Origin: a virus
Lineage: Duplodnaviria > Heunggongvirae > Uroviricota > Caudoviricetes
Strand: one strand, 5' to 3'
DNA: 64,000 bases
IMG/VR virus record: IMGVR_UViG_3300033463_000046
A model generated the notes under the pieces. It worked only from the letters and a program-made list of their open reading frames with translations, did no database searches and was not told the origin of the DNA. This document shows positions 2,281 to 49,369 of the stretch, in pieces (positions within the stretch are counted from its first letter, which is position 1; every line of letters begins with the position of its first letter). The translations under genes were made by a program, and so were the position numbers.

Positions 2281-2370
2281 TGGTTGGGATAGTAGGATTC
2301 GAACCCACACTTACGCCTTCAGAGGGCTACGGATTTAGAGTCCGCTGTGCTACCATTACACCATATCCCA
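2281..2370 (-). tRNA. suppressor tRNA, anticodon CTA (reads UAG); type II, about 20-nt variable arm; CCA encoded
   Basis: Reverse complement folds as acceptor tgggata/tatccca, D-stem gtgt/gcac, anticodon stem gcgga/tccgt with loop ctCTAaa, long variable arm, T-arm gtggg-ttcgaat-cctac, discriminator a, then cca. Confidence 0.8.
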
Positions 2371-7061: not shown

Positions 7062-7217
7062 AACACATGACAAGATCACAAGCAATTACAACTGCAGCTC
7101 GTTATGGTCTGCAGCGTGAAATCGCATATGAGATTGATCATAATAATCGTACTCCTGAGGAGGCACTTGCCGAATGGGATATTCTTTAGTATAAAAAATT
7201 TTAAACCAAAAACTCTC

Positions 7218-7649
7218 ATGGATTATAAGGAATTAACAAGAAAACTAAATGAGTTCCGTGAAAAAGCTCGCAAGGAAAGTAGAACTTTCACAAGTGTGCA
7301 GCTTTACGAGGAATTTGAGAAAATCGGCTTTAATGCTTCTATTGCTAAGCGTGTAGCTGCTCTTATGGAGTTTGAAAAAATCGGTACGGCAAAACTATAT
7401 AGTATGCCAGAAAAACCGATTCATCAGGCTCGGATTGAAACCTTGTATAAGGAAGCCCAAAAGTCTCACAAAAAGTACATTGCCAAGCGTGATCGTGTGA
7501 AGACTGAGGACATGACTGAAAAACAAGCTCTGGATATGCTGATCAAGAAGGGTTACAGAATCAAGAAAGCTGTCAAGTTTGACCTAGAGCGTTTCATGGT
7601 TGAGCAGCCTGAGATGTATCGTAGATATTGTATTTATGAATACATTTGA
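7218..7649 (+). CDS. hypothetical protein
   Basis: Internal ATG (MDYKELTRKLNEF...) of track ORF 7104-7649; the upstream part looks non-coding. Confidence 0.5.
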   Translation: MDYKELTRKLNEFREKARKESRTFTSVQLYEEFEKIGFNASIAKRVAALMEFEKIGTAKLYSMPEKPIHQARIETLYKEAQKSHKKYIAKRDRVKTEDMTEKQALDMLIKKGYRIKKAVKFDLERFMVEQPEMYRRYCIYEYI

Positions 7650-8731: not shown

Positions 8732-10036
8732 ATGAAAGACAAGATTAAAGAGTTTAGAGACAAAAATCCTATATTGGATTTTGCAGCAGGCTTTATCCCA
8801 GGTGTGGGAGAAGCACAAGATGCTCATGATTTTGTACATGCTGCTAAAAAGAAAGACTTTGGAGGAATGGCATTAGCTTCTTTAGGTTTTATTATTCCAG
8901 GTGTAACTGGAGGACAATTCTTGAAGATACTTAGACCACTAACAAAAACATAGTGGGGAGCTTGGGCTGCTAAACATTTAGATGAGTTGTCTACTGTTAG
9001 ACCAAGACTTGCTGAAGGTGTTGCAAAAAATGAACCAGAAGCTGTAAAGATACATAAGACATTAGAAAAAATAGCTGATGGCAAAGTATATATTCCAGAA
9101 AAACGTGGCATTGTTAAAGATATTGACCCAGATACTCCTATTTTACCATTTGTAGATTAGAGAGGATATAACCTTACTCCTGAAGCTAGAGTAAATGCAG
9201 CTTTAGATTACGCTATAAGTACTGAAAAAGGGCGTGCTGTTCCTGGAATAATGGGAGGAGCAAAGGGAGTGCAAGGTGTAGAAGAATTAATACCAGGATT
9301 CCCAGCTTTTAAGAAAATAAATAATGTTAAAACTAGAATGGGACAATTCACTGGTGCTGACATTATTACTGCATTGTATTATAGTGGTCATGGTAAGATA
9401 AGATCTAGTAATGCTATATATGATGCTATTATGAAAGCTCCAGTATCTGGAAATGCTAAAGAATACGCCAAAGCTTAGTTAGAAGTTGTAGAAGGAATAC
9501 TATAGAAATACAGTAAAAACACTGATAAAGTTGGAGTGTTTAAAGCTACTAAATTAGCTAAGAAAGGTAGAGATAATGTTTCAGAAACAGAAAGAGCACA
9601 TTCATATGGTCTAATTCCAGATGAATTAGTTAATCCTAAAACTGATCAAGCTGTTAAAGATAGAATACATTTGGAAGAATCTTTAAACAATTTGAGTATA
9701 TGGTTTGGTTCTAAAAATGGTAATGGTGTTGCAGAATTTTATGGTCCTATTCCAATGAATTTATATTCTGGAAGTTATGGAGGAAAGAAATTTGGAGGTA
9801 GTGGTGATCATAAATTATTTGGATTTAATAATTCTATATTAGTAAAGAATTAGGATGATCTTGCAATACATATTGCTAATTCTAAAGATAAAACTATGGG
9901 ATTGGTAACTGATATTTAGGATGGTGCTGGTGTGACAAATGACGTAATATTCTAGCCATATAGGTATAGTTTAATAAGACAAAAGAAAGGTGGTCGGATT
10001 TGCCTAACTACTTCGAAGAAGCGAGGACCGTTTTAA
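8732..10036 (+). CDS. hypothetical protein carrying 8 in-frame TAG codons (amber read-through gene)
   Basis: Track ORFs 8732-8953, 9251-9478 and 9536-9853 are collinear in one frame, separated only by TAG triplets. The frame runs to TAA at 10034-10036 (1302 nt = 434 codons from 8732). The C-terminal 60 codons are less certain. Confidence 0.5.
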
Positions 10037-11330: not shown

Positions 11331-11333
11331 AAG

Positions 11334-11407
11334 AGTCGTTTAGCTCAATTGGTAGGAGCGCAACACTATTAATGTTGAGGCCGTCAGTTCAAGTCTGACA
11401 ACGAATT
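11334..11407 (+). tRNA. tRNA, Asn-like body with anticodon loop ctATTaa (anticodon ATT, atypical)
   Basis: Acceptor agtcgtt/aacgaat (one G-A mismatch), D-arm gctc-aattggta-gagc, anticodon stem caaca/tgttg, T-arm gtcag-ttcaagt-ctgac. Paralogous to tRNAs at 23372 and 30165. Confidence 0.6.
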
Positions 11408-11409
11408 AG

Positions 11410-14564: not shown

Positions 14565-14845
14565 CTAACTTTTATGTGGTATAGTGTAAGGGTAGTCTTA
14601 CATTATCTGGATAATGTTAAAATGGGTATAGTTACATGAGATAAGAGTAGTCCAGAATGCTCCTCTGAAGTTATGTACCTTGAAGATGTAGCACGATATG
14701 AGCGTATGCTCATATTGAGAGAGTTCGAGTCTCTCTACCACAACTAGATAATAGAAGTTAAACATTTAAAATAGTTATAATTATGAAGAAGTATTTACGA
14801 AAACGCTTGTTAGGTTACACCGAGATCTAACAGCTCCAATCGTAT

Positions 14846-14936
14846 ATCGGTAAGTGCGTGGAAACAGGCGGATTACATCGGGCTTTTAACCCGAATAGCA
14901 GGGTTCGACTCCCTGTTGGAGCACAAATCAACTCCT
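14846..14936 (+). tRNA. atypically long (91 nt) tRNA-Lys(TTT)-like gene with about 19 extra nt in the D region
   Basis: Perfect acceptor gctccaa/ttggagc; anticodon arm tcggg-ctTTTaa-cccga; T-arm caggg-ttcgact-ccctg. 36 nt lie between acceptor and anticodon stem where 17 are expected. Confidence 0.45.
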
Positions 14937-15532: not shown

Positions 15533-15960
15533 CTATAATTTATGATGTATGATACGTAGAATTACAGAAGTTCGAGAAACTACTATTTATGTCGGAGACA
15601 AGCTGATAGTAGTGAAAGAAGAAGTCCACACAATTAGGATTCTTCCAGACACACCCGAGGATTAGCTGCATCTTCCTCGTTAAAATCGCGATGTAGCCGC
15701 AGAGATCCGGCACTGGTGTTAAGCGTCCGGTCATTCTTCGACCAGAATTTTCTTTTGAAATAAAGAAGCTGGCAGAGCTCAAAAGAGTGAATGCCTCTAG
15801 GATGGTAACCTGGAGGCTTTTTCTTTGAAAGTCTGATTTTGCTCATAATAGGTTGGAAAAGTTGAGAATTATCTATAATATCGCATGATATATCAATAGA
15901 TAATTTCTCAACTATTCCGGATTCATGTTGAGAACTAAATTAATTAAACGTTTAATTATT

Positions 15961-17190
15961 ATGAATGAAATTTAGAAATTTAAGCAAGGAAGAAAAGTAC
16001 TTTCTGCTAAATTCGGTGACAATTTTAAAAGAGTTGGCACAGCAAGTAATGGTTTATCTGGTATATATTTCAATCCTGACGATAATCAATTATGGAAAGG
16101 TGGATTAACTGGATATAGTAGAATAGGAGATACATATAGTTATTATTCAGGATTAGGAGGAGGTGTTATTAAAGCTTCTGACTACATTGAAAAGCCTAAG
16201 ACAGGAGTTACTACAAGAACTTCTAGTAATCCAGGTGAAATAGTAGTTAATGGTAAAAGATACGCCTCGAAAGCTGATTGGGTAAAAGAACAAAGAGCAC
16301 AAAGAGAACAACAACCATAGGAAGTAGTAATAACTGGTAGGGCTGGTAAAAGATCTGCTTCTAAAGTCACACCAAGAGGTCAGGGATATTGGGATAAACA
16401 ATACCAAGATTTCTTAGGTAAGATGACTGACGATTAGAAAGCGTGGTTAGCATAGAGAGGTATTGATTATAATTCTGCTCAACAAATGCAAACTTATTTA
16501 GCTAATCATGGTCAAGATCTTGGTAAATGGGGTGCTGATGGTAAATGGGCAGGTGCTTCCCAAGCAGCTTGGGATAATTTCGTTGCAACAACAATGAAGA
16601 ATAATCCTTTACAAACTCCTGTAAGAGATCCACAACCTACAGTTGAACCAGTAGTTGATGCTGCAGACCCATTCGGATATAAGACATCTAATCATTATGG
16701 TGATGGCTTTGCTTTAAAGAATATGGGATTCAGTAATTATGCTGGATTACAAAAATTTGCTATGGGTGATGATCAATTTGCTAAAGACTTACGTGAAAGA
16801 TTTGGTCAAGATGTAAGTCAGTGGGATCAAGCAGCTGTAGAAGGCGCATTGAATGTAAGTGGTCGTTATCGTGGTGGTAGAAGTGGCGACTTTGGTGATA
16901 TGGCTCGTAGTATGCAAGATTGGGCTGCTAAGAAAAATGCTGCATATGATCAAAAAGAATTAGCTTCTAGAACTGGTGCAAGTGGTACAACATATTCTTC
17001 TCCAGAAATGATGAAGAAATTTGAGAGTATTAAAATATCCCCAGAAGTTAAATATGGTTAGAGTACTAAGTTTGATTTTAGTAATATGAAGTTTAATTCT
17101 GGATTTGGTAATACTGGCACTAATACTCTTGGAGATGCTGGGGCAGGTACTATGAACAATCAAAAACAATTAGCATATGCGGATAAGTAA
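15961..17190 (+). CDS. peptidoglycan-binding-domain protein with in-frame TAG codons (recoded)
   Basis: One frame from ATG 15961 through track ORF 16486-17061 to TAA at 17188. In-frame TAG at codon 5 and four more. Motif MQTYLANHGQDLGKWGADGKWAGASQAAWDNFV resembles PG_binding_1. Confidence 0.5.
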
Positions 17191-18235
17191 ATTACAATAC
17201 GGAAATTCACTTTTGGAGGCAAGTAATCGACAAAGAGGAAAAGTTCAAGCTTGGGGTAATAGAGGTATTCAGCAAGTTGGTATGCAAGCTAAACAAGCTG
17301 AAGAAGAAGTTATTCAATATAAAAAAGCTACTGCTCGTGCTAATAAGAAGACAAAGACTCCTATGTAGTCAAATAACTTGGCTAAACTTCAAGACCAATT
17401 ATGGAGAATTGGAGCATTCAAAGGAGTTAAAGATAGAAGAGGAAATGAATCTACATACTAGACTGCTGTTGATGGTATCAAAGGTAATATGACCAATACT
17501 GCTATTGCTAATGCTCAGAAAATGGGTTTCACTATTAACAATGATGGTAGTCTTAGTAAGACATCTGATACATCATCAAAAGTCACAAGTACTGCTAAAA
17601 CACCAGAATAGTCTTCTAAAAAGACTAGATTTATGACATCTAGTGGTCCAATGATGCCTGCTCAAGTAATGGCACAAGCTTCAGAAGCTATTGCTAATAA
17701 CAAGACACTACAAAATACTGCAGACTTCTTAGGACATAATCCTGCTGCTATGGCTTTAGAAGATTTAGATAGAGCTACTTCAAACCGTTTAGCTGAATCA
17801 TTATTTGGTATAAGACCTTTCAAAGGTAGAACTGTTACTCGTTTACCTAATCTATAGACTGAGGAATTAAAGAAATAGGTTTTATTTGCTAGAAGTAAAG
17901 GTTAGAATAACTTTAATTCTGATATGTATAAAGCTATGTATGGTTATAATTATGCGTCTCGTAATGGAAAAGGTGGACAAGATAGAAGTGGATTTTGGAA
18001 TAGAATGGATACTCCTACGGGACGTCTTGAGCATACATTAGGTGCTTATGGTTTTTATGTAGATAATAATGGTGACACAATAGTTGAGGATACATACGAT
18101 TTTAATGTTGGACAAAAATAGGGAGGAGATGGAAGATATGCTGTAACCCGTAATTTCTTAGGAGAATTCGGAAGCAAATCTACTGATCCTAACGAGGGTA
18201 AAATCAAATATAGGATTAATTTAGGTAAATTATGA
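17177..18235 (+). CDS. peptidoglycan-binding-domain protein with multiple in-frame TAG codons (recoded)
   Basis: Track ORFs 17177-17368, 17633-17857 and 17924-18121 share one frame and are separated only by TAGs; the frame ends at TGA 18233-18235. LQDQLWRIGAFKG...DGIKGNMTNTAIANAQKMGF is PG_binding_1-like. Confidence 0.5.
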
Positions 18236-21096: not shown

Positions 21097-21171
21097 GGAC
21101 GCTTAGTTCAGCTGGTTCAGAATACTAGTCCTACAAACTAGAGATCGATGGTTCGAATCCATCAGTGTCCA
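21097..21171 (+). tRNA. tRNA, anticodon loop ccTACaa (Val-TAC by standard numbering; C33 atypical)
   Basis: Acceptor ggacgct/agtgtcc, D gttc-agctggttca-gaat, anticodon stem ctagt/actag, T-arm gatgg-ttcgaat-ccatc. Confidence 0.65.
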
Positions 21172-21187
21172 CTTAAACTCTCTCATT

Positions 21188-23371: not shown

Positions 23372-23444
23372 GGGGGGTCTAGCTCAGTTGGTAGAGCGCA
23401 ACACAGTTAATGTTGAAGTCGGAGGTTCGATTCCTCCGACCTCC
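23372..23444 (+). tRNA. tRNA-Asn-like (GTT) with A33 instead of U33
   Basis: Acceptor gggggtc/gacctcc, D gctc-agttggta-gagc, anticodon arm caaca-caGTTaa-tgttg, T-arm ggagg-ttcgatt-cctcc. Confidence 0.65.
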
Positions 23445-23689
23445 GCTATTATTCCAGTCCGAACTCAGAGCGGACTTTAAAATCTACTGAGCGCACAATG
23501 AGCAAGTGGCGGACAGCTTACTTCGTTGAAGACTGGCGGTTCGGTCGGAGGCTCTTCGGAGTATCAGGGAGAGAAGTGGAATACCTCTCCCTTTCGATTG
23601 ATGTAATTTAGTATTTGATAAAGGAAGCCAAAACTATAAGTATTAACAATACGTTTATAAATTCTGAATTAAAGTTAAGGCTTCCATTT

Positions 23690-29238: not shown

Positions 29239-29312
29239 GCGCCGGTAGTTCAGTAGGTTAGAATGGTGGTCTCCAAAACCATTGGTCGTGGGTTCGAATC
29301 CTTCCCGGCGTG
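29239..29312 (+). tRNA. tRNA-Trp (CCA)
   Basis: Acceptor gcgccgg/ccggcgt, D gttc-agtaggtta-gaat, anticodon arm gtggt-ctCCAaa-accat, T-arm gtggg-ttcgaat-ccttc. Confidence 0.75.
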
Positions 29313-29351
29313 CTACGCTTCTGCCTAAGAAGCGCGTACGAGAGTTTTTGA

Positions 29352-29837: not shown

Positions 29838-29912
29838 GGGGAGAAAGCTTAAGTGGTATACAGCAGAGGCCTGTTAAGCCTAAGATAGTGGGTTCGAATC
29901 CCTCTCTCCCCG
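29838..29912 (+). tRNA. tRNA-Asn (GTT)
   Basis: Acceptor ggggaga/tctcccc, anticodon arm gaggc-ctGTTaa-gcct, T-arm gtggg-ttcgaat-ccctc, 3-bp D-stem. Confidence 0.7.
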
Positions 29913-30164: not shown

Positions 30165-30236
30165 GGCTCTTTAGCTCAGTGGTAGAGCATCGCGCTGTTA
30201 ACGCGACGGTCGTCAGTTCGATCCTGACAGGGGCCT
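30165..30236 (+). tRNA. tRNA-Asn (GTT)
   Basis: Acceptor ggctctt/aggggcc with GU pairs, D gctc-agtggta-gagc, anticodon arm tcgcg-ctGTTaa-cgcga, T-arm gtcag-ttcgatc-ctgac. Confidence 0.8.
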
Positions 30237-30251
30237 CAACATTTATTAATT

Positions 30252-31016: not shown

Positions 31017-32990
31017 ATGACATTGACAACAATGATTATCGCGGCAGTTATTGTACTGCTTGTGATTTTAACAATTATCGGACTCTTGTCTCGTTATCGC
31101 AAGTGTCCAAGTGACCAACTCTTAGTTGTGTTTGGTAAAGTGGGTGGAAAATCTGCTGCCAAGATATATCCTGGAGGTGGTGTGTTTGTATGGCCTGTCA
31201 TTCAGGACTACAAAGTTATGTCGATGAAACCATTTCAGATTAACTCGGAAGTAGTTGGTCCTGATAGTGGTATGATTCAGACTCATGTGAAGGTAGCTTT
31301 AACTACTGCAATCTCTCAAGATCCCACTATTCAGCAAAATGCTGCTGCTCGTTTCTTAAGTGCTGACAAACAAGAAATTCAGAAACAGATTCAAACCATT
31401 CTTGAAGGTGAAGTAAGATTAATTATTGCTTCATTGTCAATTGAGGAGATTAACTCCAATCGAGATGCCTTTAAGACTAAGGTTAAAGATAGTCTTGGTA
31501 CTGAACTTGCTAAGGTTGGTTATGATATAACTAATATTAACATTCAGGAAATCACTGATGAACAAGACTACATTAAAAATCTATCTAAGAAGAAGGAAAC
31601 GGAGGCAAGAGCTAATGCTGAGGCTGATATTGCTGACAAGGAAAAAGATGGAGCTATTAGAAAAGCTAAGATTAGACAAGAGCAGGAAATCCAAGTAGCA
31701 ACTGCTGATAAGGAAAGAGAGACTACAGTTTCTCAAACTAAGCAGGAGCAGGCTGTAAGAGTAGCAGAAATTGAGAAAGAACAGGAAACTCAGATTGCCG
31801 AAACTCAGAAGGCAAAGGAAGTACAGCTTTCCGAAATTGAGAAGGAGAAGCAGACTGGTATCGCTAACCAGAAGGCTCTTCAGACTGCTGCTGTAGCAAA
31901 TGCTGATGCAGATGCTGAATCTAAGAAAGCAGAGGCTGATGCTCGTAAGGTTGCAGCTGTTGCTGAACAGAAGGCAAAGGCTGAATCTTCTAAGGCAGAA
32001 TCTGAAGCAACTCAGCGTAAAGCTGTAGCCGCTGCTCAGGCAGATGCTGAAGCTACTGAGAACGAGAAGGAAGCTTTAAAGCAGACTCGTATTGCTGAAG
32101 CTAATCAGAAGAAGGAAGCTGATATTGCTAAGGCAACTCAGGAGAAGGAAGCAAAGAAAGCTGAGTATGAGTCACAGAAGCAGATTCGTAAGGCTAAGGC
32201 TGACCAGGATGCAGGTGTAGCTGAGCAGAATGCAAAGATTCTTGTTGCTGAGGCTCGTGCGAAGGCTGGTCAGGCAGAAGCTGATGCTGACAAGACTGTC
32301 CAGGTTGCTAAGATTGAAGCTGATATGAAGGCTGCTAAGACTAAGCAAGAACGTCAGTTAGAGGTTAACGAGGCTGAAGCCAAGGCAGTTGAAGCTAAGT
32401 TAAATGCTGAGCAGGTTGTTCCAGCCGAGCAGTCTAAGAAGAAGACTATCATCGAAGCAGAAGCTATTAAAGAGAAGGCAATTCTCGAAGCTGAAGCAGA
32501 GAAACAGCGTATTCTTAAGAAGGCTGAAGCCGATTCTGAGGAAATCAAACTGAAGAAGTTAGCAGAAGCTGAGGGTACAAAGCAGATTAAGCTGGCTGAA
32601 GCTGAGGGTCAGAAGGCTCTGTGGTTTGCAGAGGCAGAGGCTCTTCAGAAGAAGGAAATGGCTCCTGCACTTGCTCTGGAGAAGATGGTACAGTCATTCG
32701 GTGGTAACCCAGATCTTCTTGTTCAATACAAGATGGTTGACCAGTATAAGGGTATTGCTGAAGCTTCTGAGAAGATGCTTGAGCATATTCAGCTTGGTAA
32801 TGTCACTGTTTATGGTGACGCTACAACTGGTGCGAAGTTTGCTAAGAGCTTTATTGAGATGTTCACTCCTGGTCTTGACATCGTTCAGAATGGTTTCAAA
32901 GACAAGTTTAAGGAAGTGTTCGGTCTTGATAAGAAGTCTGAAGAACTTCCCGAAGAGAAAACTGACGAAAACTTCGAGGAGGTTAAGTAA
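31017..32990 (+). CDS. flotillin-like SPFH/band-7 protein with long E/A/K coiled-coil
   Basis: 657 aa. N-terminal TM IIAAVIVLLVILTIIGLL, SPFH block LLVVFGKVGG...GPDSGMIQTHVKVALT, then about 300 aa of EA-rich heptad repeats. Confidence 0.75.
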   Translation: MTLTTMIIAAVIVLLVILTIIGLLSRYRKCPSDQLLVVFGKVGGKSAAKIYPGGGVFVWPVIQDYKVMSMKPFQINSEVVGPDSGMIQTHVKVALTTAISQDPTIQQNAAARFLSADKQEIQKQIQTILEGEVRLIIASLSIEEINSNRDAFKTKVKDSLGTELAKVGYDITNINIQEITDEQDYIKNLSKKKETEARANAEADIADKEKDGAIRKAKIRQEQEIQVATADKERETTVSQTKQEQAVRVAEIEKEQETQIAETQKAKEVQLSEIEKEKQTGIANQKALQTAAVANADADAESKKAEADARKVAAVAEQKAKAESSKAESEATQRKAVAAAQADAEATENEKEALKQTRIAEANQKKEADIAKATQEKEAKKAEYESQKQIRKAKADQDAGVAEQNAKILVAEARAKAGQAEADADKTVQVAKIEADMKAAKTKQERQLEVNEAEAKAVEAKLNAEQVVPAEQSKKKTIIEAEAIKEKAILEAEAEKQRILKKAEADSEEIKLKKLAEAEGTKQIKLAEAEGQKALWFAEAEALQKKEMAPALALEKMVQSFGGNPDLLVQYKMVDQYKGIAEASEKMLEHIQLGNVTVYGDATTGAKFAKSFIEMFTPGLDIVQNGFKDKFKEVFGLDKKSEELPEEKTDENFEEVK

Positions 32991-38273: not shown

Positions 38274-38546
38274 ATGAGACCAAATGTATTTAAATTTCAA
38301 AGTGATATTAAGATCTTAGTTGCTAAACAGAAAGGGACTGGAGATTGCGGAGTATGGATGCATCCAATGTACTGTGCTTATTATTTAATAAAGCATAATG
38401 TTCAAGAAATTGATAAGTTCATTGAAGATGATATTAAGAAATCCTATAAAGCATTACCAGATGAATATTCTAAGAAAGCTTTTCGCAAGAAAGTCGAAGA
38501 CTACTATATTCAATACGGAGAAGAGACTGTACGTGCTGATAGATAA
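38274..38546 (+). CDS. hypothetical protein
   Basis: 90-aa ORF. Confidence 0.45.
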   Translation: MRPNVFKFQSDIKILVAKQKGTGDCGVWMHPMYCAYYLIKHNVQEIDKFIEDDIKKSYKALPDEYSKKAFRKKVEDYYIQYGEETVRADR

Positions 38547-38802
38547 AGAACTTGATTCAATCTATGGATGTGTTCAAGGAGGACACGTAGTAGCTGAATG
38601 GCTTTTAAAGCATCCTCAGCAAGATTGGAACAATAGTTACCTTATCTATGTGTCAGCAGATGTAATAATGTGGAAAGAGAAATTAGATATTCTCGAAATA
38701 GATTATACAGAGTTTCGTGAACCTGACCTTAATAATAAGGTAACAGCATTAGCAATTCTGAATAATGACAGACTCTTTAAGAAACTAAGATTGATAAAAT
38801 AA
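38398..38802 (+). CDS. hypothetical protein (start uncertain, overlaps previous ORF)
   Basis: 134-aa ORF in another frame; the plausible start is near 38540. Confidence 0.4.
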   Translation: MFKKLISSLKMILRNPIKHYQMNILRKLFARKSKTTIFNTEKRLYVLIDKELDSIYGCVQGGHVVAEWLLKHPQQDWNNSYLIYVSADVIMWKEKLDILEIDYTEFREPDLNNKVTALAILNNDRLFKKLRLIK

Positions 38803-38943
38803 TATCTTCCGAGGTAGTGGCGAGGAGCAGCTAGTTGACAACAAGACGTAGCTGTGCGAACAAAGCGTAGGGGCTGAATACAACCGAGAAGTTGTACGAG
38901 AGCTGTGTAGGAAGATACCCTCTATCTGCAGGTAGAGGGACTT

Positions 38944-39015
38944 GATCGTATAGCTCAATGATAGAGCAGCGGTCCTCAAAACCGAAGGTTTAGGGTTTGA
39001 ATCCCTATACGATCA
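38944..39015 (+). tRNA. tRNA with anticodon loop ccTCAaa (anticodon UCA, reads UGA/UGG); candidate opal suppressor or Trp-UCA
   Basis: Acceptor gatcgta/tacgatc, D gctc-aatgata-gagc, anticodon stem cggt/accg (4 bp), T-arm taggg-tttgaat-cccta. Position 33 is C. Confidence 0.6.
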
Positions 39016-39094
39016 CTCCCCACTGTGAAGTGGCATCTCCTTTCATTAAAAACAAATGTCACTAAATTTCTCGGGACTCAGAGGAGTCCCACTT

Positions 39095-39168
39095 GGGTAC
39101 ATAGCTCAGTAGGTTAGAGCACTGCCCTGATAAGGCAGAGGTCACAGGTTCAAGTCCTGTTGTACCCA
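39095..39168 (+). tRNA. tRNA-Ile (GAT)
   Basis: Acceptor gggtaca/tgtaccc, D gctc-agtaggtta-gagc, anticodon arm ctgcc-ctGATaa-ggcag, T-arm acagg-ttcaagt-cctgt. Confidence 0.85.
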
Positions 39169-39169
39169 C

Positions 39170-42551: not shown

Positions 42552-43367
42552 ATGGGTGGTGGTAGTTACGATCCGATAGCGTCTCGTAGTAGATCTACGA
42601 CGTATTATCAAAATAGGTCTCGAGAAGAAGTATTCTCTCAGCGTCATATGGATCCTTTAATGAATCCGAAGGGTGTAGCATATCGTGAAGCCCGTGACTC
42701 TGAAGAACATCCAGAATCGTTCCCAATTATTATTGCTCTCGATGAGACTGGTAGTATGGGACGTATTCCCGAAATTATTATCAAGAAGATTCTTCCTGAC
42801 ATTATGGAATCCATAATGAATGCAGGAGTTAAGGATCCTCAAGTAATGTTTATGGGAATTGGAGACTGTGCTAACTATGAAGAGGCTCCTCTTCAAGTTG
42901 GTCAGTTTGAAAGTTCCGACGAACTTATAGAAAAGTGGCTTACTAAAGTCTACTTGGAACATAAGGGAGGCGGAAACGGTTTCGAGTCCTATCCTCTAGC
43001 ATGGTATTTTGCTGCTCACCATATCGTTACAGATTCGTGGGAAAAGAGACAGCAGAAAGGTGTTCTTATCACTATTGGTGATGAGAGTTATCAGCAACGT
43101 CTCTTAGCAGAACAGATTACACGCTATATTGGCGACACCCCCGAAGTCGATATAGTTGCGTCTGAACTGCTTGAACGTGTTCGTGAACAGTGGAATGTAT
43201 TCCATATCCATTGTAATGGTGGCAGCTACCGTGCTTCTGAAACTAAATGGGAGAAACTCCTCGGTCCAAATCTCGTTGTCTCCGTAGATAATGATGGTAT
43301 GGATATTAAGGATATTATCCCTCGTATTGTAGTTGGTTGTTATCGTAAACCAGAAGATGATGCGTAA
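42552..43367 (+). CDS. von Willebrand factor A (vWA) domain protein
   Basis: MIDAS-like IIIALDETGSMG (D-x-S-x-S) followed by a Rossmann-like fold pattern. Confidence 0.65.
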   Translation: MGGGSYDPIASRSRSTTYYQNRSREEVFSQRHMDPLMNPKGVAYREARDSEEHPESFPIIIALDETGSMGRIPEIIIKKILPDIMESIMNAGVKDPQVMFMGIGDCANYEEAPLQVGQFESSDELIEKWLTKVYLEHKGGGNGFESYPLAWYFAAHHIVTDSWEKRQQKGVLITIGDESYQQRLLAEQITRYIGDTPEVDIVASELLERVREQWNVFHIHCNGGSYRASETKWEKLLGPNLVVSVDNDGMDIKDIIPRIVVGCYRKPEDDA

Positions 43368-44487
43368 AACTCAAATAGTACTGGGAGCCCTTTTCGGAGA
43401 CGAAGGAAAGGGTTCCACAGTACAGTTTCTTTGTAAAGAACAATTAAGAAAAGGAATTACACCTTTAGTTATAAGGTTTAGTGGAGGACCACAAGCAGGA
43501 CATCGTGTAATGTATAATGGTATTGATCACGTATGTTCTCTTTTAGGTTCAGGTGTTCTATTGGGCTGTCCTACATATCTTGATAAAGATGTTATGATTG
43601 ATCCAATTTCTCTAATGAAAGAAGTGCAATCTCTTCAACAATTCGGAATAAACCCAGACATATACGTTCATCCATATTGCCGAGTTATTTTCCCTGATGA
43701 TATTATAAAGAATCAGAGTAATAAAAAGACAATACAGGATGGTACTTGTGGTTGTGGCATATTTGAATGTTTTGATAGAAATCGTAAAAATCCAGATATA
43801 CTTAGATGTATTGCTAGTGCAACTGTAGCTCCTGAGGATTATGTAGATCTTTATGGAGTTAAACACAATAGAGAGCAGTTTATTGAAGCGTGTAAATGGA
43901 TGGATAACTATTGTCATATTCGTATGCTAGAAGAATTGGCAGAGATGCATAGTTCTCTAATATTTGAAGGAAGTCAAGGATTATTACTTGATATGGAAGG
44001 TGGTTTTATGCCTAATTGTACTCCTAGTATGGTTGGCTTAAATGGAGTAAGAGAAGAATTTCTTGAAAATGCTGAAGTTTTCTTAGTAATGAGAAGTTAT
44101 CTTACTCGACATGGTAATGGTTATGATCCTGTTGGTGAATCATTTGTACGAAAGTATTTTACAAACTTAGAAGAACCTACAAATTTGAATGATGGTCCAC
44201 AAGGACAATTCAAACTTGGTGTCCTTGATTTAGATCTAGTAATTCGCTCTTTTGACCGAAATCGTTTGGACAATTATAAAAGAATGTATAATATTGAATA
44301 CAACGCAGTGATAACACACATGGATTGTAGTCCATATCCGACTATTATTCCTGCATTCTTCAATTATAGTAAAATTGATTATATTGATATTGATAAAGCA
44401 ATGCAATATTGTTTTAGGCACATATCTCTTAAAAATACTTACTTAGGACTAGGTCCTGAGTCTGAAATCGTCCTCTTCAATAGATAA
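43357..44487 (+). CDS. adenylosuccinate synthetase family protein (PurA/PurZ-like)
   Basis: LGALFGDEGKGSTVQF (PurA P-loop GDEGKGK-like), FSGGPQAGHRV (GG-N-AGH block), FEGSQGLLLDMEGG (FEGAQG block). Starts at ATG 43357, overlapping the vWA stop. Confidence 0.65.
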   Translation: MMRKTQIVLGALFGDEGKGSTVQFLCKEQLRKGITPLVIRFSGGPQAGHRVMYNGIDHVCSLLGSGVLLGCPTYLDKDVMIDPISLMKEVQSLQQFGINPDIYVHPYCRVIFPDDIIKNQSNKKTIQDGTCGCGIFECFDRNRKNPDILRCIASATVAPEDYVDLYGVKHNREQFIEACKWMDNYCHIRMLEELAEMHSSLIFEGSQGLLLDMEGGFMPNCTPSMVGLNGVREEFLENAEVFLVMRSYLTRHGNGYDPVGESFVRKYFTNLEEPTNLNDGPQGQFKLGVLDLDLVIRSFDRNRLDNYKRMYNIEYNAVITHMDCSPYPTIIPAFFNYSKIDYIDIDKAMQYCFRHISLKNTYLGLGPESEIVLFNR

Positions 44488-45341: not shown

Positions 45342-46508
45342 ATGCATAAGATATTATATTTACTAATCGCAGCACTAATGCTCGTCGGATGTTCACATGA
45401 GACAGGTATAGATAATACCGAATATGTGACAAATAAGTATAACACCGCATTTGTGCAAACATTTGGACAACCTGCTCCTAATCAGACTTGGGGATTCTCA
45501 GAGTCCGCAAATACTAGGACAACTCAGCCAGAAAGTAATATGTGGGAGAGCTGGGGATACGTTGTTCCAAGTGCTATTACTGCAGATGAAATTACAGAGG
45601 TAAAGAAGGTATTTGATAAGAAGGGTGAAGCTTCTTATGAGTCATTAGTAGATTGGGATTGCTTCTTTGTTCAGCATGTTTATGGTAATCATGGTAATAT
45701 GGATTATTTATGTTCATATTTACCTGGAGGAAAAGAAGAGACGATTTATCCAGACTGGAACAATTGGCAACCTACAGTCGTTACTAATTACGACGACCAT
45801 ATCTTTAACTTTAATGCAACAAGTGGAAGTATTCAACTAATGGTTGAAAGTTCTACTCAGAGATTTGGTTTCCATTCATCTCAAGATAGTCAAATGCACT
45901 ATTGGTTTAGGATGGAAGAGATTAATGGTGCTTATTATGTAGGTATTGATTACGAAGCAACTGGACAATGGGATAATCAAAAAGAGGCTCGTGACTTTAT
46001 CTACAATGACTGGGTAATCAAGATTGTTCCAGGAAAAGGAAGTACTCCTCCAGTTAACAATGTAAGAATTATGGTGGAAGACTTATCTGCTTCTAGTGGA
46101 ACTGACTTTGATTTTAATGACGCAGTATTTGATGTAAACATTGTTAATGGTAATGCTGAATGTATTTTACAGGCTGCAGGAGGTATTCTACCATTAAAGA
46201 TTGAGGGATATGAAGTACATCAATTATTTGGTCAACCTGAACAAGAAGAGTACCCAATGATTAATACTGGTGCTGGACCTACACATGCTCCTGTTCCATT
46301 TACACTTACAGGTAAATCTAATCCTAAGGACATCCATATATATGTAAATAAGAATGGTAATTGGATTGAAATATCTGCAAATAAGGGACAACCTGCTTCC
46401 AAGATTGCAACTTGGCAAAATAAAGCGTGGTGTACTGAAAGGCAACCAATTTCTGAGAGATATCCTGGATTCCCATTATGGGTAAGTAATCCAGACATCG
46501 TTTGGTGA
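45342..46508 (+). CDS. lipoprotein, hypothetical
   Basis: MHKILYLLIAALMLVGCSHE, a signal peptide with lipobox LVGC. The track ORF starts 21 codons upstream (45279). Confidence 0.6.
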   Translation: MHKILYLLIAALMLVGCSHETGIDNTEYVTNKYNTAFVQTFGQPAPNQTWGFSESANTRTTQPESNMWESWGYVVPSAITADEITEVKKVFDKKGEASYESLVDWDCFFVQHVYGNHGNMDYLCSYLPGGKEETIYPDWNNWQPTVVTNYDDHIFNFNATSGSIQLMVESSTQRFGFHSSQDSQMHYWFRMEEINGAYYVGIDYEATGQWDNQKEARDFIYNDWVIKIVPGKGSTPPVNNVRIMVEDLSASSGTDFDFNDAVFDVNIVNGNAECILQAAGGILPLKIEGYEVHQLFGQPEQEEYPMINTGAGPTHAPVPFTLTGKSNPKDIHIYVNKNGNWIEISANKGQPASKIATWQNKAWCTERQPISERYPGFPLWVSNPDIVW

Positions 46509-48787: not shown

Positions 48788-49369
48788 GGTCTTCCTATTA
48801 AATGGGGCTGACAGGATTAGACGGATAATGAAGGTAATAAGAACATGCAAAGGCTGTATGGAAAGACATACAAATCAATTAAATGGCAAGAACAATGTTT
48901 CTTTCGCCATCACAAGCTACAGAGTAGCTGCGTGAGGCGTGGGGTCGTGATTAACCCTATCATCCAATAATCACAAAGTCTACGATTCTCAGTGTCTCCG
49001 ACTATAAACACAGCAACTGAGTGGTGGCAGGTGCGACTTCGGTCAATCCCCCAGTCATTGCCTAAGACTTTAAAAAAGGCACTGGTGAAGAAAACACTCC
49101 AAATTGAAAAGCATGTACAATTCTTATAGAATAGTTGTTGCGGACGGCGGTTCGATTCCGCCCAGTTCCACTCCTGTGATCTGACGGAGCATGCGGTCAC
49201 TAAAAGGCATGCGTCAATTCTCACTTAGACTCAAGAAGTGATAGGTTGTACAACTGAAGGGAATGAATTTTTTGCAGGTAAGGAAACCGCCATCTCAAGT
49301 TTTCTAATCTATAAATCATAAAACTAGAGAAAAGGGTAAGTAGGTGTACGGGACACCTACGTAAATATA

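What the first reader, a model, noticed from the sequence alone, without database searches (positions are those of the whole stretch)
38944..39015. Possible second suppressor: tRNA with UCA anticodon (cognate to UGA)
The folded tRNA has a 4-bp anticodon stem and a 7-nt loop ccTCAaa. By standard numbering this gives anticodon UCA, which reads UGA (and UGG). The canonical tRNA-Trp(CCA) is present separately at 29239-29312. C33 instead of U33 is unusual, so the assignment needs confirmation. If real, the phage carries both amber and opal decoding capacity.
Basis: seen in the sequence. Interest (0 to 1): 0.6.

Follow-up and report, generated by a model that had tools for sequence, protein, structure and literature searches.

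The report
Conserved UGA-reading tRNA in amber-recoded phage
A ~197 kb gut phage that already reads the stop codon TAG as an amino acid also carries a well-preserved tRNA built to read a second stop codon, TGA, yet TGA still ends genes wherever we could look. It is therefore a spare or low-level suppressor tRNA of a kind recently described in similar phages, and not evidence of a second change of genetic code.

Summary
ARAGORN and Rfam (64.1 bits) both call a 72-nt tRNA at 38944-39015(+) with loop CCUCAAA: C33, anticodon UCA, A37.

It is a maintained gene. Five homologues from other metagenomes sit in the same slot. Three base pairs show changes on both sides, and every copy keeps the anticodon arm, C33, the G27·A43 mismatch and A73, while the flanks diverge.

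Its core is tRNA-Trp-like. The acceptor end (G1-C72, A73) does not fit the bacterial Trp identity set.

The window is part of a 196.7 kb contig with about 35 tRNAs, a tmRNA and a CUA suppressor tRNA. TAG is clearly read through in several genes.

TGA is not. In the 64 kb window no coding stretch contains an in-frame TGA, and TGA ends about 28% of genes. Two TGA terminators align exactly with TAA in orthologues. Genomes with and without the tRNA use TGA stops equally. No release factor or aaRS was seen in the roughly 80 kb examined.

So "opal decoding capacity" is potential only. The best reading is an accessory, probably low-efficiency UGA reader, as reported for Zeta crAss-like phages carrying both CTA and TCA suppressors.

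The parts
38944..39015 (+). tRNA gene with anticodon UCA (opal-suppressor type): Trp-like core, 4-bp anticodon stem, C33, discriminator A73, no encoded CCA
   Evidence: ARAGORN; Rfam RF00005 64.1 bits; conserved with compensatory changes in L023/L024/L025/L027/L028
38974..38980 (+). Anticodon loop CCUCAAA: C32, C33 (38975) in place of the near-universal U33, U34-C35-A36 (38976-38978), A37, A38
   Evidence: invariant in all six copies. A metagenome scan with positions 33-36 left free returned only CUCA
38969..38985 (+). Anticodon arm GCGGU/ACCGA: four Watson-Crick pairs plus a conserved G27·A43 mismatch ('unpinned at the top')
   Evidence: pair 26:42 of the alignment is unpaired in all 4 distinct sequences, while the other four pairs never vary
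38918..38939 (+). 9-bp hairpin (CCCUCUAUC-UGCA-GGUAGAGGG) ending 4 nt before the tRNA 5' end; one of many such hairpins upstream of tRNAs in this array; role unknown (processing or transcription signal is an inference)
   Evidence: -13.9 kcal/mol; array mean -7.9 vs -3.8 for random 35-mers, p about 1e-6; identical in L025
39020..39044 (+). Spacer element after the tRNA: hairpin CCACU-GUGA-AGUGG followed by CAUCUCCUUUC. Conserved in L023 (with compensatory changes) and L027, absent in L025 and L028. No Rfam match.
39095..39169 (+). tRNA-Ile(GAU), the syntenic right-hand neighbour of the UCA tRNA in every genome that has it
2281..2370 (-). Partner suppressor: 90-nt tRNA with anticodon CUA, a Gln-like scaffold and an extra variable-region hairpin
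29239..29313 (+). Canonical tRNA-Trp(CCA) of the array (U33, 5-bp anticodon stem, G73); not a recent duplicate of the UCA tRNA
8732..10036 (+). Gene with 7 in-frame TAG codons (434 aa when TAG is read as sense); shows the genome is amber-recoded
   Evidence: the in-frame TAGs are kept in L017-L019; the collection's gene caller calls the full 434-aa product
15925..18235 (+). Two adjacent genes with 5 and 7 in-frame TAG codons; the second (17177-18235) ends in TGA
45342..46508 (+). Gene ending in TGA whose orthologues in the UCA-carrying genomes L023/L024 end in TAA at the same aligned position: TGA is a true terminator here
7104..7649 (+). Gene ending in TGA; 40%-identical orthologues in L017/L019 end in TAA at the same aligned position

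Best explanation
This is a functional, selectively maintained phage tRNA gene of tRNA-Trp ancestry whose anticodon UCA pairs with UGA. It is an opal-suppressor-type tRNA carried as an accessory by an amber-recoded (TAG = sense) gut phage of about 197 kb. Inferred mechanism: it is transcribed with the co-oriented tRNA array, trimmed at both ends, given CCA by a nucleotidyltransferase (none is encoded in the gene), and probably modified at A37, since A36-A37-A38 is the usual context for isopentenylation. It is then charged, most likely with Trp because TrpRS reads C35 and A36, and competes with release factor 2 at UGA codons. TGA still terminates about a quarter of the phage's own genes and is never seen in-frame in the window. 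The tRNA is therefore not the adaptor of a TGA-to-Trp code change in the sequence examined. It more probably gives low-level or conditional UGA readthrough, affecting host termination, buffering nonsense mutations, or persisting from or preparing for switches between opal and amber recoding. Its non-standard features could set its efficiency: C33, the acceptor end A73/G1-C72 and the 4-bp anticodon stem. Shown: gene, structure, anticodon, conservation, Trp-like core, TAG recoding, TGA used as a stop. Inferred: expression, charging, amino acid, readthrough and its purpose.
For: Real tRNA. Purifying selection: six copies from five samples in the same slot (UCA, then Ile-GAU, then Met-CAU where the contig reaches that far); 94% of cells paired; three pairs changed on both sides (3:70 UA to CG, 5:68 GC to UA, 49:65 UA to CG), reached by 5 of 500 shuffles and 0 in all slid controls; the anticodon arm, C33, G27·A43, D-loop and A73 are invariant while the flanks diverge. 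Trp ancestry: BLAST against GenBank phages hits mainly annotated tRNA-Trp. Positions 8-48 match the Trp consensus except G19A and UC to CU at 33-34. The body motif with 33-34 left degenerate is Trp(CCA) in 72 of 73 bacterial species-genome hits. Canonical U33-UCA tRNAs with the same anticodon arm occur in four IMG/VR contigs. A 4-bp anticodon stem unpinned at 27:43 raises UGA reading by tRNA-Trp (PMC13092985). C33 is compatible with function in yeast tRNA-Leu(GAG) (PMC13492127). Not a code change: no in-frame TGA with coding signal in the window. Terminators are TAA 25, TGA 10, TAG 1. TGA aligns with TAA in orthologues. TGA terminator share is 26% in UCA-carrying loci vs 30% in loci lacking it, p = 0.62. 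Precedent: Zeta crAss-like phages of 155-190 kb with tRNA blocks carry both CTA and TCA suppressors while using only one (ctkor1 amber, Lera opal) (PMC12386605).
Against: No direct evidence of expression, charging or readthrough. The acceptor end lacks most bacterial Trp determinants (G73, A1-U72, G2-C71, G3-C70, G4-C69; PMC9976931), and C34 is replaced, so host TrpRS may charge it poorly. C33 replaces the U-turn uridine and might lower ribosomal performance. The gene is missing from sister genomes (L026, L021, L022, L004), so it is dispensable. An efficient suppressor would be expected to select against TGA terminators, which is not seen. Only about 80 kb of 196.7 kb was examined, and the codon-model test for in-frame TGA was run on the 64 kb window alone.
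Confidence: 0.55

Rival explanations
1. Dual recoding: the phage uses both TAG and TGA as sense codons in different gene sets, with TGA-containing genes (for example structural or lysis genes) lying in the ~116 kb of the contig outside the examined region. This tRNA would be their dedicated adaptor.
For: The tRNA is under clear purifying selection. Recoded stops cluster in particular modules in other phages (Borges preprint). Only 41% of the contig was seen. A conserved 4-bp anticodon stem is a UGA-reading feature.
Against: The late-type, TAG-rich genes in the window contain 21 in-frame TAGs and no in-frame TGA, and one of them ends in TGA. The collection's gene caller read in-frame TAG as sense on this contig. 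TGA is a frequent, orthologue-verified terminator. No RF1 or TrpRS was seen in 80 kb. The papers read reported each recoded phage as using only one of the two recodings. Sister genomes manage without the tRNA.
Confidence: 0.12
2. A maintained tRNA-shaped RNA that does not act mainly in decoding. It could be a decoy or resistant substitute in the conflict with host tRNA-targeting nucleases, or a tRNA kept for another role, with C33 and A73 making it a poor translation substrate.
For: Phage tRNAs are proposed to carry anticodon-loop changes that escape host anticodon nucleases (PMC10264068). This array has other loop oddities: Val C33, Asn A33, and four Asn tRNAs with different loops. The acceptor end does not fit bacterial Trp identity. 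There is no detectable effect on TGA terminator usage.
Against: Every feature needed for decoding is conserved: 7-nt loop, A37-A38 after A36, intact acceptor and T arms, and a compensated 19:56 tertiary pair in most copies. A decoy for a Trp-targeting nuclease would be expected to keep CCA. C33 barely affects a natural yeast tRNA.
Confidence: 0.2
3. Decaying pseudogene or chance tRNA-like sequence derived from tRNA-Trp by two loop mutations.
For: C33 is rare. There is one anticodon-stem mismatch. L027 has a C4·A69 mismatch and an uncompensated C56. The gene is absent from some relatives.
Against: 64 bits to the tRNA model. Three compensatory pair changes and an invariant anticodon arm across genomes whose flanks have diverged. 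The same loop is found in six copies from five samples.
Confidence: 0.03
4. Selenocysteine tRNA, as ARAGORN labels it.
For: Anticodon UCA.
Against: It has a standard 7-bp acceptor and 5-bp T-stem, a 4-bp D-stem, a 5-nt variable loop, 72 nt in total and A73. tRNA-Sec has an 8+5 arrangement, a 6-bp D-stem, a long extra arm and G73 (established knowledge). Rfam's best match is the general tRNA model.
Confidence: 0.01

Closest known systems
Suppressor tRNA pairs (CTA + TCA) of Zeta crAss-like phages such as ctkor1 and Lera (PMC12386605)
   Same: Gut phage genomes of 155-190 kb with blocks of 20-34 tRNAs. Both amber and opal suppressor tRNAs are present while only one stop codon is actually recoded (ctkor1: amber). 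tRNAscan-SE typed Lera's Sup-TCA as Trp or Arg, the same two isotypes my BLAST hits fall into.
   Different: Membership of this contig in that family is untested: the helicase is only about 30% identical to crAss-like Bacteroides phages.
Phage Sup-tRNA(UCA) of TGA-recoded (code 4) phages, e.g. the Jade clade (Borges et al. preprint, 10.1101/2021.08.26.457843)
   Same: Phage-encoded tRNA with anticodon UCA, predicted to insert Trp.
   Different: Those genomes have in-frame TGA in structural and lysis genes, and sometimes RF1 and TrpRS next to the tRNA. Here TGA is a terminator and neither gene was seen in ~80 kb. This tRNA has C33; four IMG/VR UCA tRNAs with the same arm have U33.
Bacterial tRNA-Trp(CCA)
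   Same: D-arm, anticodon stem, positions 35-38 and variable loop are nearly identical to the consensus. A9, C35, A36 and G5-C68 are present.
   Different: UC to CU at positions 33-34. A19/U56 in place of G19/C56. A73 in place of G73 (G in 68 of 70 bacterial tRNAs with this body). G1-C72, A2-U71, U3-A70 and C4-G69 in place of the bacterial determinants.
Blastocrithidia-like tRNA-Trp with a 4-bp anticodon stem (PMC13092985)
   Same: A Trp-type tRNA whose top anticodon-stem pair (27:43) is unpaired, a feature shown to increase UGA reading; here it is conserved in all copies.
   Different: Those tRNAs keep anticodon CCA and read UGA by C:A wobble. This one is fully cognate (UCA).
Natural non-U33 tRNAs: yeast tRNA-Leu(GAG) with C33 and Candida tRNA-Ser(CAG) with G33 (as described in PMC13492127)
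   Same: A conserved departure from U33 in an otherwise functional elongator tRNA. The Candida case is tied to an ambiguous-decoding stage of a codon reassignment.
   Different: Those are eukaryotic sense-codon readers. No functional data exist for this tRNA.
Unannotated tRNA of coliphage AV110 (Mosigvirus, OR352940.1)
   Same: Best BLAST hit (84.7% over positions 5-61): the same anticodon 5' stem and loop CCUCUAA with C33, U34, C35.
   Different: Its anticodon is UCU (Arg), its discriminator G73, and its D-loop and acceptor differ.

Membership tests
tRNA (Rfam RF00005), canonical type I elongator | Cloverleaf with 7-bp acceptor, D arm, anticodon arm and T arm; score above the Rfam gathering threshold | tested here: met
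   64.1 bits vs 29, full-length match to model positions 1-71; ARAGORN call
tRNA (Rfam RF00005), canonical type I elongator | U33 (U-turn) and a 5-bp anticodon stem | tested here: not met
   C33, and a G27·A43 mismatch leaving 4 bp; both are fixed in all six copies
Opal suppressor tRNA (Sup-UCA) | Triplet UCA at positions 34-36 of a 7-nt anticodon loop | tested here: met
   Loop CCUCAAA; the only possible register
Opal suppressor tRNA (Sup-UCA) | Demonstrated readthrough of UGA, or aminoacylation | not testable with these tools
   Needs a reporter assay, tRNA sequencing or proteomics
Adaptor of a TGA-recoded (code 4) phage genome | In-frame TGA in conserved genes, aligned with Trp in homologues | tested here: not met
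   Codon-model scan of the 64 kb window: the only 4 flagged TGAs lie in a stretch (209-1331) that has stops of all three kinds, against 19 clean TAGs. TGA ends 10 of 36 genes. TGA aligns with TAA in orthologues. The flanks were checked only through the collection's gene calls, and 116 kb was not examined.
Adaptor of a TGA-recoded (code 4) phage genome | Depletion of TGA as a terminator | tested here: not met
   TGA share is 26% in UCA-carrying loci vs 30% in loci lacking the tRNA, Fisher p = 0.62
Amber-recoded (code 15-like) phage genome (context) | In-frame TAG inside coding stretches; TAG rare as a terminator; CUA suppressor tRNA present | tested here: met
   19 in-frame TAGs with coding signal on both sides. 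Four genes restored. In-frame TAGs kept in relatives. TAG ends 1 of 36 genes. CUA tRNA at 2281-2370. The amino acid inserted at TAG was not determined.
Bacterial tRNA-Trp identity set (PMC9976931, Table 1) | G73; A1-U72, G2-C71, G3-C70, G4-C69, G5-C68; A9; C34, C35, A36 | tested here: not met
   Present: A9, C35, A36, G5-C68 (U5-A68 in L023). Absent: G73 (A73), A1-U72 (G1-C72), G2-C71, G3-C70, G4-C69, C34. A73 with G1-C72 matches the archaeal/eukaryal Trp set instead.
tRNA-Trp lineage (ancestry, not identity) | Sequence similarity of the D arm, anticodon stem and variable region to tRNA-Trp above other isotypes | tested here: met
   Most of the listed top phage hits are annotated tRNA-Trp, with some Arg. 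Alignment. 72 of 73 bacterial hits to the body motif are Trp(CCA).
Bacterial tRNA-Arg identity | A20 together with C35 and U/G36 | tested here: not met
   The D-loop AAUGAUA gives U20; position 36 is A
tRNA-Sec (selC) | 8+5 acceptor/T helix, 6-bp D-stem, long variable arm, about 90 nt or more | tested here: not met
   7+5 arrangement, 4-bp D-stem, 5-nt variable loop, 72 nt
Theta (HDV-like) ribozyme-associated phage tRNA (PMC10879173) | Minimal HDV-like ribozyme starting at the tRNA 3' end | tested here: inconclusive
   A permissive Rfam scan of 38780-39110 found no ribozyme. I did not confirm that Rfam 15 holds a theta model. The spacer has a conserved hairpin of unknown nature.
Zeta crAss-like phages (genome-level membership) | Phylogenetic placement by terminase, capsid or polymerase genes | not tested
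   No such marker lies in the accessible 80 kb. The helicase is about 30% identical to crAss-like Bacteroides phages.

The most novel reading that the evidence does not exclude
The fixed C33, together with A73 and the 4-bp anticodon stem, is an adaptive tuning of a fully cognate UGA reader. It would keep readthrough low or conditional so that the tRNA can coexist with TGA terminators. That would be a naturally captured 'ambiguous intermediate' of stop-codon reassignment in a phage that has already reassigned TAG, analogous to G33 in Candida tRNA-Ser(CAG). Alternatively, the genome really uses two reassigned stop codons in different modules.
Probability: 0.15. Interest if true: 0.7.

Novelty: new member of a known kind. 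Interest (0 to 1): 0.38.

Why it matters
Phage suppressor tRNAs are the tools of stop-codon recoding, which is thought to time late-gene expression and lysis. Why some phages keep a suppressor for a stop codon they still use as a stop is an open question raised in the 2025 Zeta crAss-like paper. This locus gives a clean, conserved example with three unusual, invariant features: C33, the acceptor end A73/G1-C72, and a 4-bp anticodon stem. There are natural presence/absence comparators among sister genomes. That makes the question testable with C33U and A73G mutants in a UGA reporter. For annotation, it warns that a Sup(UCA) tRNA alone should not trigger code 4 translation. This contig needs TAG read as sense (code 15-like), not code 4.

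Tried and rejected
1. ORF-length comparison under codes 11, 4 and 15. Lifting any stop lengthens ORFs, so the comparison does not discriminate. I replaced it with a codon-model test.

2. All-frame tblastn census of stops inside alignments. Off-frame and antisense alignments between closely related DNA swamped it, and my identity filter then removed the true frames. I replaced it with the orthologue-terminator test.

3. Positional conservation in IMG/VR relatives at about 65% identity. That slot holds only tRNA-Ile there.

4. Viral-contig scans for the D-arm plus UCA, and for the exact C33 anticodon arm. No hits.

5. Contrast with contigs carrying U33-UCA tRNAs. L032 is an unrelated 67% GC contig and L030 is too short, so this was uninformative.

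6. Phage Lera (PV725988). It is not in the local collection, and the paper's supplement is only an ORF table. I could not compare its Sup-TCA sequence.

7. PHROGs and Pfam on the TAG-recoded genes. No annotation.

8. IMG/VR relatives of two TAG-recoded genes, to look for amber/opal switching. None found.

9. Rfam search of the spacer for a theta or HDV-like ribozyme. Nothing.

10. Walking further along the contig. Look-ups are limited to window proteins, so only about 7 kb on the left and 10 kb on the right could be added. I judged further expensive searches unlikely to be decisive.

11. Considered and rejected: selenocysteine tRNA (structure), Arg identity (no A20), Cys or Gly identity (no U73), and recent duplication of the phage's own Trp(CCA) (too dissimilar).

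Full report
**1. The observation**

ARAGORN finds 34 tRNAs and a tmRNA in the window, including a 73-nt gene at 38944-39016(+) with anticodon tca. Rfam's tRNA model matches 38944-39015 from end to end at 64.1 bits (gathering score 29). That score is mid-range for the 33 tRNAs Rfam finds here.

Read directly, the gene has these features:
- a 7-bp acceptor stem (GAUCGUA/UACGAUC);
- D-stem GCUC/GAGC with D-loop AAUGAUA;
- anticodon stem GCGGU/ACCGA, meaning four Watson-Crick pairs under a G27·A43 mismatch;
- loop C32-C33-U34-C35-A36-A37-A38;
- a 5-nt variable loop;
- T-arm UAGGG-UUUGAAU-CCCUA;
- discriminator A73 and no encoded CCA.

The sequence allows no other register for the anticodon hairpin. 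Both the MFE and the centroid fold keep it. ARAGORN's 'SeC' label only restates the anticodon. The 7+5 helix, 4-bp D-stem and short variable loop exclude a selenocysteine tRNA.

**2. What the contig is**

The window is positions ~43,981-107,980 of a 196,700-bp metagenome contig, ENA ERZ27257207 k141_8582193. GC content is 37%. It has no close relative among GenBank phages.

Its replicative helicase is about 30% identical to those of crAss-like Bacteroides phages and 74% identical to an unannotated human-gut 'Bacteriophage sp.' record. Homologues of a window gene lie on many contigs of 135-195 kb. This is therefore a clade of large gut phages that carry tRNA arrays.

**3. Which stop codons are read through**

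I trained a codon model on the long ORFs. It finds 19 in-frame TAGs with a same-frame coding signal on both sides. It flags only 4 TGAs, all in a stretch (209-1331) that also contains in-frame TAA and TAG stops.

Reading TAG as sense restores genes of 434, 421, 352 and 688 aa, with 7, 5, 7 and 2 in-frame TAGs. The collection's own gene caller made the same calls. The in-frame TAGs of the first gene are kept in related contigs.

Of 36 + strand genes, 25 end in TAA, 10 in TGA and 1 in TAG. One TAG-rich gene ends in TGA.

Where orthologues reach the C-terminus, the TGA terminators of 7104-7649 and 45342-46508 align exactly with TAA. The second case involves genomes that also carry the UCA tRNA.

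Backup stops after TGA lie 0-20 codons downstream, no closer than after TAA. No release factor or aminoacyl-tRNA synthetase appears among the Pfam matches for contig positions 37.1-117.5 kb.

The phage is therefore amber-recoded, and TGA is a working terminator in everything I could read.

**4. Is the tRNA maintained?**

Yes. The same gene sits in the same slot, immediately upstream of tRNA-Ile(GAU), in:
- L025 (194.6 kb contig, identical sequence);
- L023 and L024 (190 kb contig and a fragment);
- two JGI metagenome fragments, L027 and L028.

tRNA-Met(CAU) follows Ile wherever the contig extends that far.

Between the window and L023 the flanks are heavily diverged. Inside the tRNA only six bases differ, and they form three compensated pairs: U3-A70 to C3-G70, G5-C68 to U5-A68, and U49-A65 to C49-G65.

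On the four distinct sequences:
- 94% of cells pair.
- Three pairs change on both sides. Five of 500 shuffles reach this, and none of the slid controls does.
- The D-arm, the whole anticodon arm (with C33 and UCA), the G27·A43 mismatch and A73 never vary.

With only four distinct sequences the statistics are modest. The contrast with the flanks is nevertheless plain.

A metagenome scan that left positions 33-36 free returned only CUCA.

The gene is absent from that slot in L026 (191.6 kb), L021, L022 and L004. It is thus an accessory gene of one sub-clade.

**5. C33**

U33 is missing in 9 of 136 well-formed tRNAs across the clade's loci, and five of those nine are copies of this gene. In the window, Val(UAC) at 21097 also has C33 and Asn(GUU) at 23373 has A33.

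C33 is therefore genuine and specific, and does not indicate a wrong fold.

I found no C33-UCA arm of this sequence in IMG/VR. There was none among 73 bacterial-genome hits to the body motif. The best GenBank phage hit, an unannotated tRNA of coliphage AV110, has the same 5' stem and loop CCUCUAA, with C33 and anticodon UCU.

From the literature:
- Yeast tRNA-Leu(GAG) naturally has C33 with little functional cost.
- G33 in Candida tRNA-Ser(CAG) lowers decoding efficiency and was linked to the CUG reassignment (PMC13492127).
- Phage tRNAs are proposed to carry anticodon-loop changes that evade host anticodon nucleases (PMC10264068).

**6. Ancestry and amino-acid identity**

BLAST against GenBank phages returns mostly annotated tRNA-Trp, with some Arg. 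Positions 8-48 equal the Trp consensus except for G19A and the UC to CU change at 33-34.

The body motif GAGCAGCGGUC-YY-CAAAACCGAAGG is Trp(CCA) in 72 of 73 hits across 185,579 species genomes. The discriminator was G73 in 68 of the 70 tRNAs where it could be read. The one exception to the CCA anticodon is a U33-UCA tRNA in a Saccharibacteria MAG. Four IMG/VR contigs hold U33-UCA tRNAs with the same arm.

The D-loop G18-A19 is matched by U56 in the T-loop. The same pattern occurs in Arg(ACG), Pro(UGG) and Ala(UGC) of this array. L027 breaks the pattern, with C56.

Against the published bacterial Trp identity set (PMC9976931), the tRNA keeps A9, C35, A36 and G5-C68. It lacks G73, A1-U72, G2-C71, G3-C70, G4-C69 and C34. 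A73 with G1-C72 is the archaeal/eukaryal Trp pattern.

Arg identity is unlikely (U20, A36). Cys and Gly are unlikely (no U73).

Trp is my best guess for the amino acid. This is an inference, and host TrpRS may charge the tRNA poorly.

**7. The 4-bp anticodon stem**

A 2026 study shows that tRNA-Trp with the 27:43 pair unpaired reads UGA better, including in E. coli (PMC13092985). The same paper notes that suppressor tRNAs exist in 0.3% of standard-code bacterial genomes.

The conserved G27·A43 here fits a UGA-reading role, although this tRNA is already fully cognate to UGA.

**8. Interpretation**

The tRNA is a real, maintained UGA-cognate tRNA of Trp descent. It is not the adaptor of a TGA recoding in the sequence I could read.

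TGA terminator usage does not differ between loci from genomes with the tRNA (26%) and without it (30%; p = 0.62). This argues that the tRNA is weak, conditional or tolerated.

This is the situation described for Zeta crAss-like phages. Those genomes are 155-190 kb with large tRNA blocks. Some have both CTA and TCA suppressors but use only one: ctkor1 uses amber and Lera uses opal. The authors discuss host perturbation and frequent switching between opal and amber as explanations (PMC12386605).

I therefore favour an accessory, low-level opal suppressor (0.55). The alternatives are a non-decoding or decoy role (0.2), dual recoding in unseen genes (0.12), a pseudogene (0.03) and tRNA-Sec (0.01).

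**9. Limits**

About 116 kb of the contig was out of reach. There are no expression or charging data. Only four distinct sequences support the covariation. The amino acid inserted at TAG was not determined. Family placement of the phage is untested.

Noticed in passing
window 2281-2370 (-); L017 4811-4900 (-); L031 11911-12007; L029 ~1575-1640: The CUA suppressor tRNA (90 nt) has an extra hairpin in the variable region whose 7-nt loop reads C-U-CUG-A-A, like a tRNA-Gln(CUG) anticodon loop. An IMG/VR UCA tRNA on the same D-arm/T-arm scaffold (L031) has its extra arm at the same place with loop C-U-CCA-A-A, a tRNA-Trp anticodon-arm mimic. L029 has another U-CCA-AA loop on a different stem. The decoy loop tracks the amino acid expected for each suppressor. 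This suggests a device to keep GlnRS/TrpRS recognition after the real anticodon changed. I found no paper describing it.
   Followed up: partly
window 21097-21172 and 23373-23446: Two other well-formed tRNAs lack U33: Val(UAC) has loop CCUACAA (C33) and Asn(GUU) has CAGUUAA (A33).
   Followed up: partly
window 11333-11408, 23373-23446, 29838-29912, 30165-30237: Four Asn-type tRNAs with different anticodon loops, including an AUU anticodon (ARAGORN only) and a copy found only by Rfam that has a 4-bp stem with a G·A mismatch. This could reflect diversification against a tRNA-targeting nuclease.
   Followed up: no
window, 3-6 nt upstream of many tRNAs (e.g. 38918-38939, 39073-39090, and upstream of 21097, 33042, 47978): Stable hairpins sit just 5' of about half the tRNAs: mean MFE -7.9 vs -3.8 kcal/mol for random 35-mers, p about 1e-6. 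The hairpin before tRNA-Ile shows compensatory changes in L023 and L027.
   Followed up: partly
window 39020-39044: The spacer after the UCA tRNA holds a GUGA-loop hairpin with compensatory changes in L023, followed by a conserved CAYCUCCUUUC. It is absent where UCA and Ile abut (L025, L028). It matches no Rfam family and is not evidently a theta ribozyme.
   Followed up: partly
window 48804-49171; L023 19634-19997; L025 18598-18954; L004 7186-7566: A phage-encoded tmRNA with tag peptide GKNNVSFAITSYRVAA, identical in L023 and L025. The more distant relatives L004 and L005 carry a permuted tmRNA. A tmRNA beside stop-codon suppressors could rescue ribosomes that read through to mRNA ends; this is speculation.
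   Followed up: no
window 14833-14924; L025 11211-11300: ARAGORN-only calls of 90-92 nt labelled 'tRNA-Ala(GGC)', with weak anticodon stems and A33. In L025 this sits where the window has tRNA-Lys(UUU). It may be an interrupted or aberrant tRNA.
   Followed up: no
L020 61-135: In the closest relative by the neighbouring protein (88% identity), the region upstream of tRNA-Met holds a 121-aa ORF and a 75-nt tRNA with loop CAUGAGG (A33, anticodon UGA) and no long variable arm. The window has the UCA and Ile tRNAs there instead.
   Followed up: no
L007 297-373 (Escherichia phage AV110, OR352940.1 ~146.2 kb): A cultured T4-like coliphage has an unannotated tRNA with a Trp-like body, C33 and anticodon UCU. 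C33 tRNAs therefore also occur in isolated phages.
   Followed up: partly
L035 (Candidatus Saccharibacteria MAG, CAZDQI010000004.1): A Trp-type tRNA with U33 and anticodon UCA, G73, in a Patescibacteria MAG. This fits the newly reported UGA-to-Trp lineage in that phylum.
   Followed up: no
window 38274-38546 and 38398-38802: Two overlapping + strand ORFs in different frames lie upstream of the tRNA. Only the first was called by the collection's gene caller, yet the 3' end of the second is conserved in L023 and L025.
   Followed up: no
window 31017-32990, 43333-44487; L016 6860-8335; L001 6316-6552: Genes interspersed with or flanking the tRNA array include an SPFH/Band-7 protein, an adenylosuccinate synthetase homologue, a Cpn60 chaperonin and an acyl-carrier-like PP-binding protein. 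Relatives have an RNA ligase in the array.
   Followed up: no
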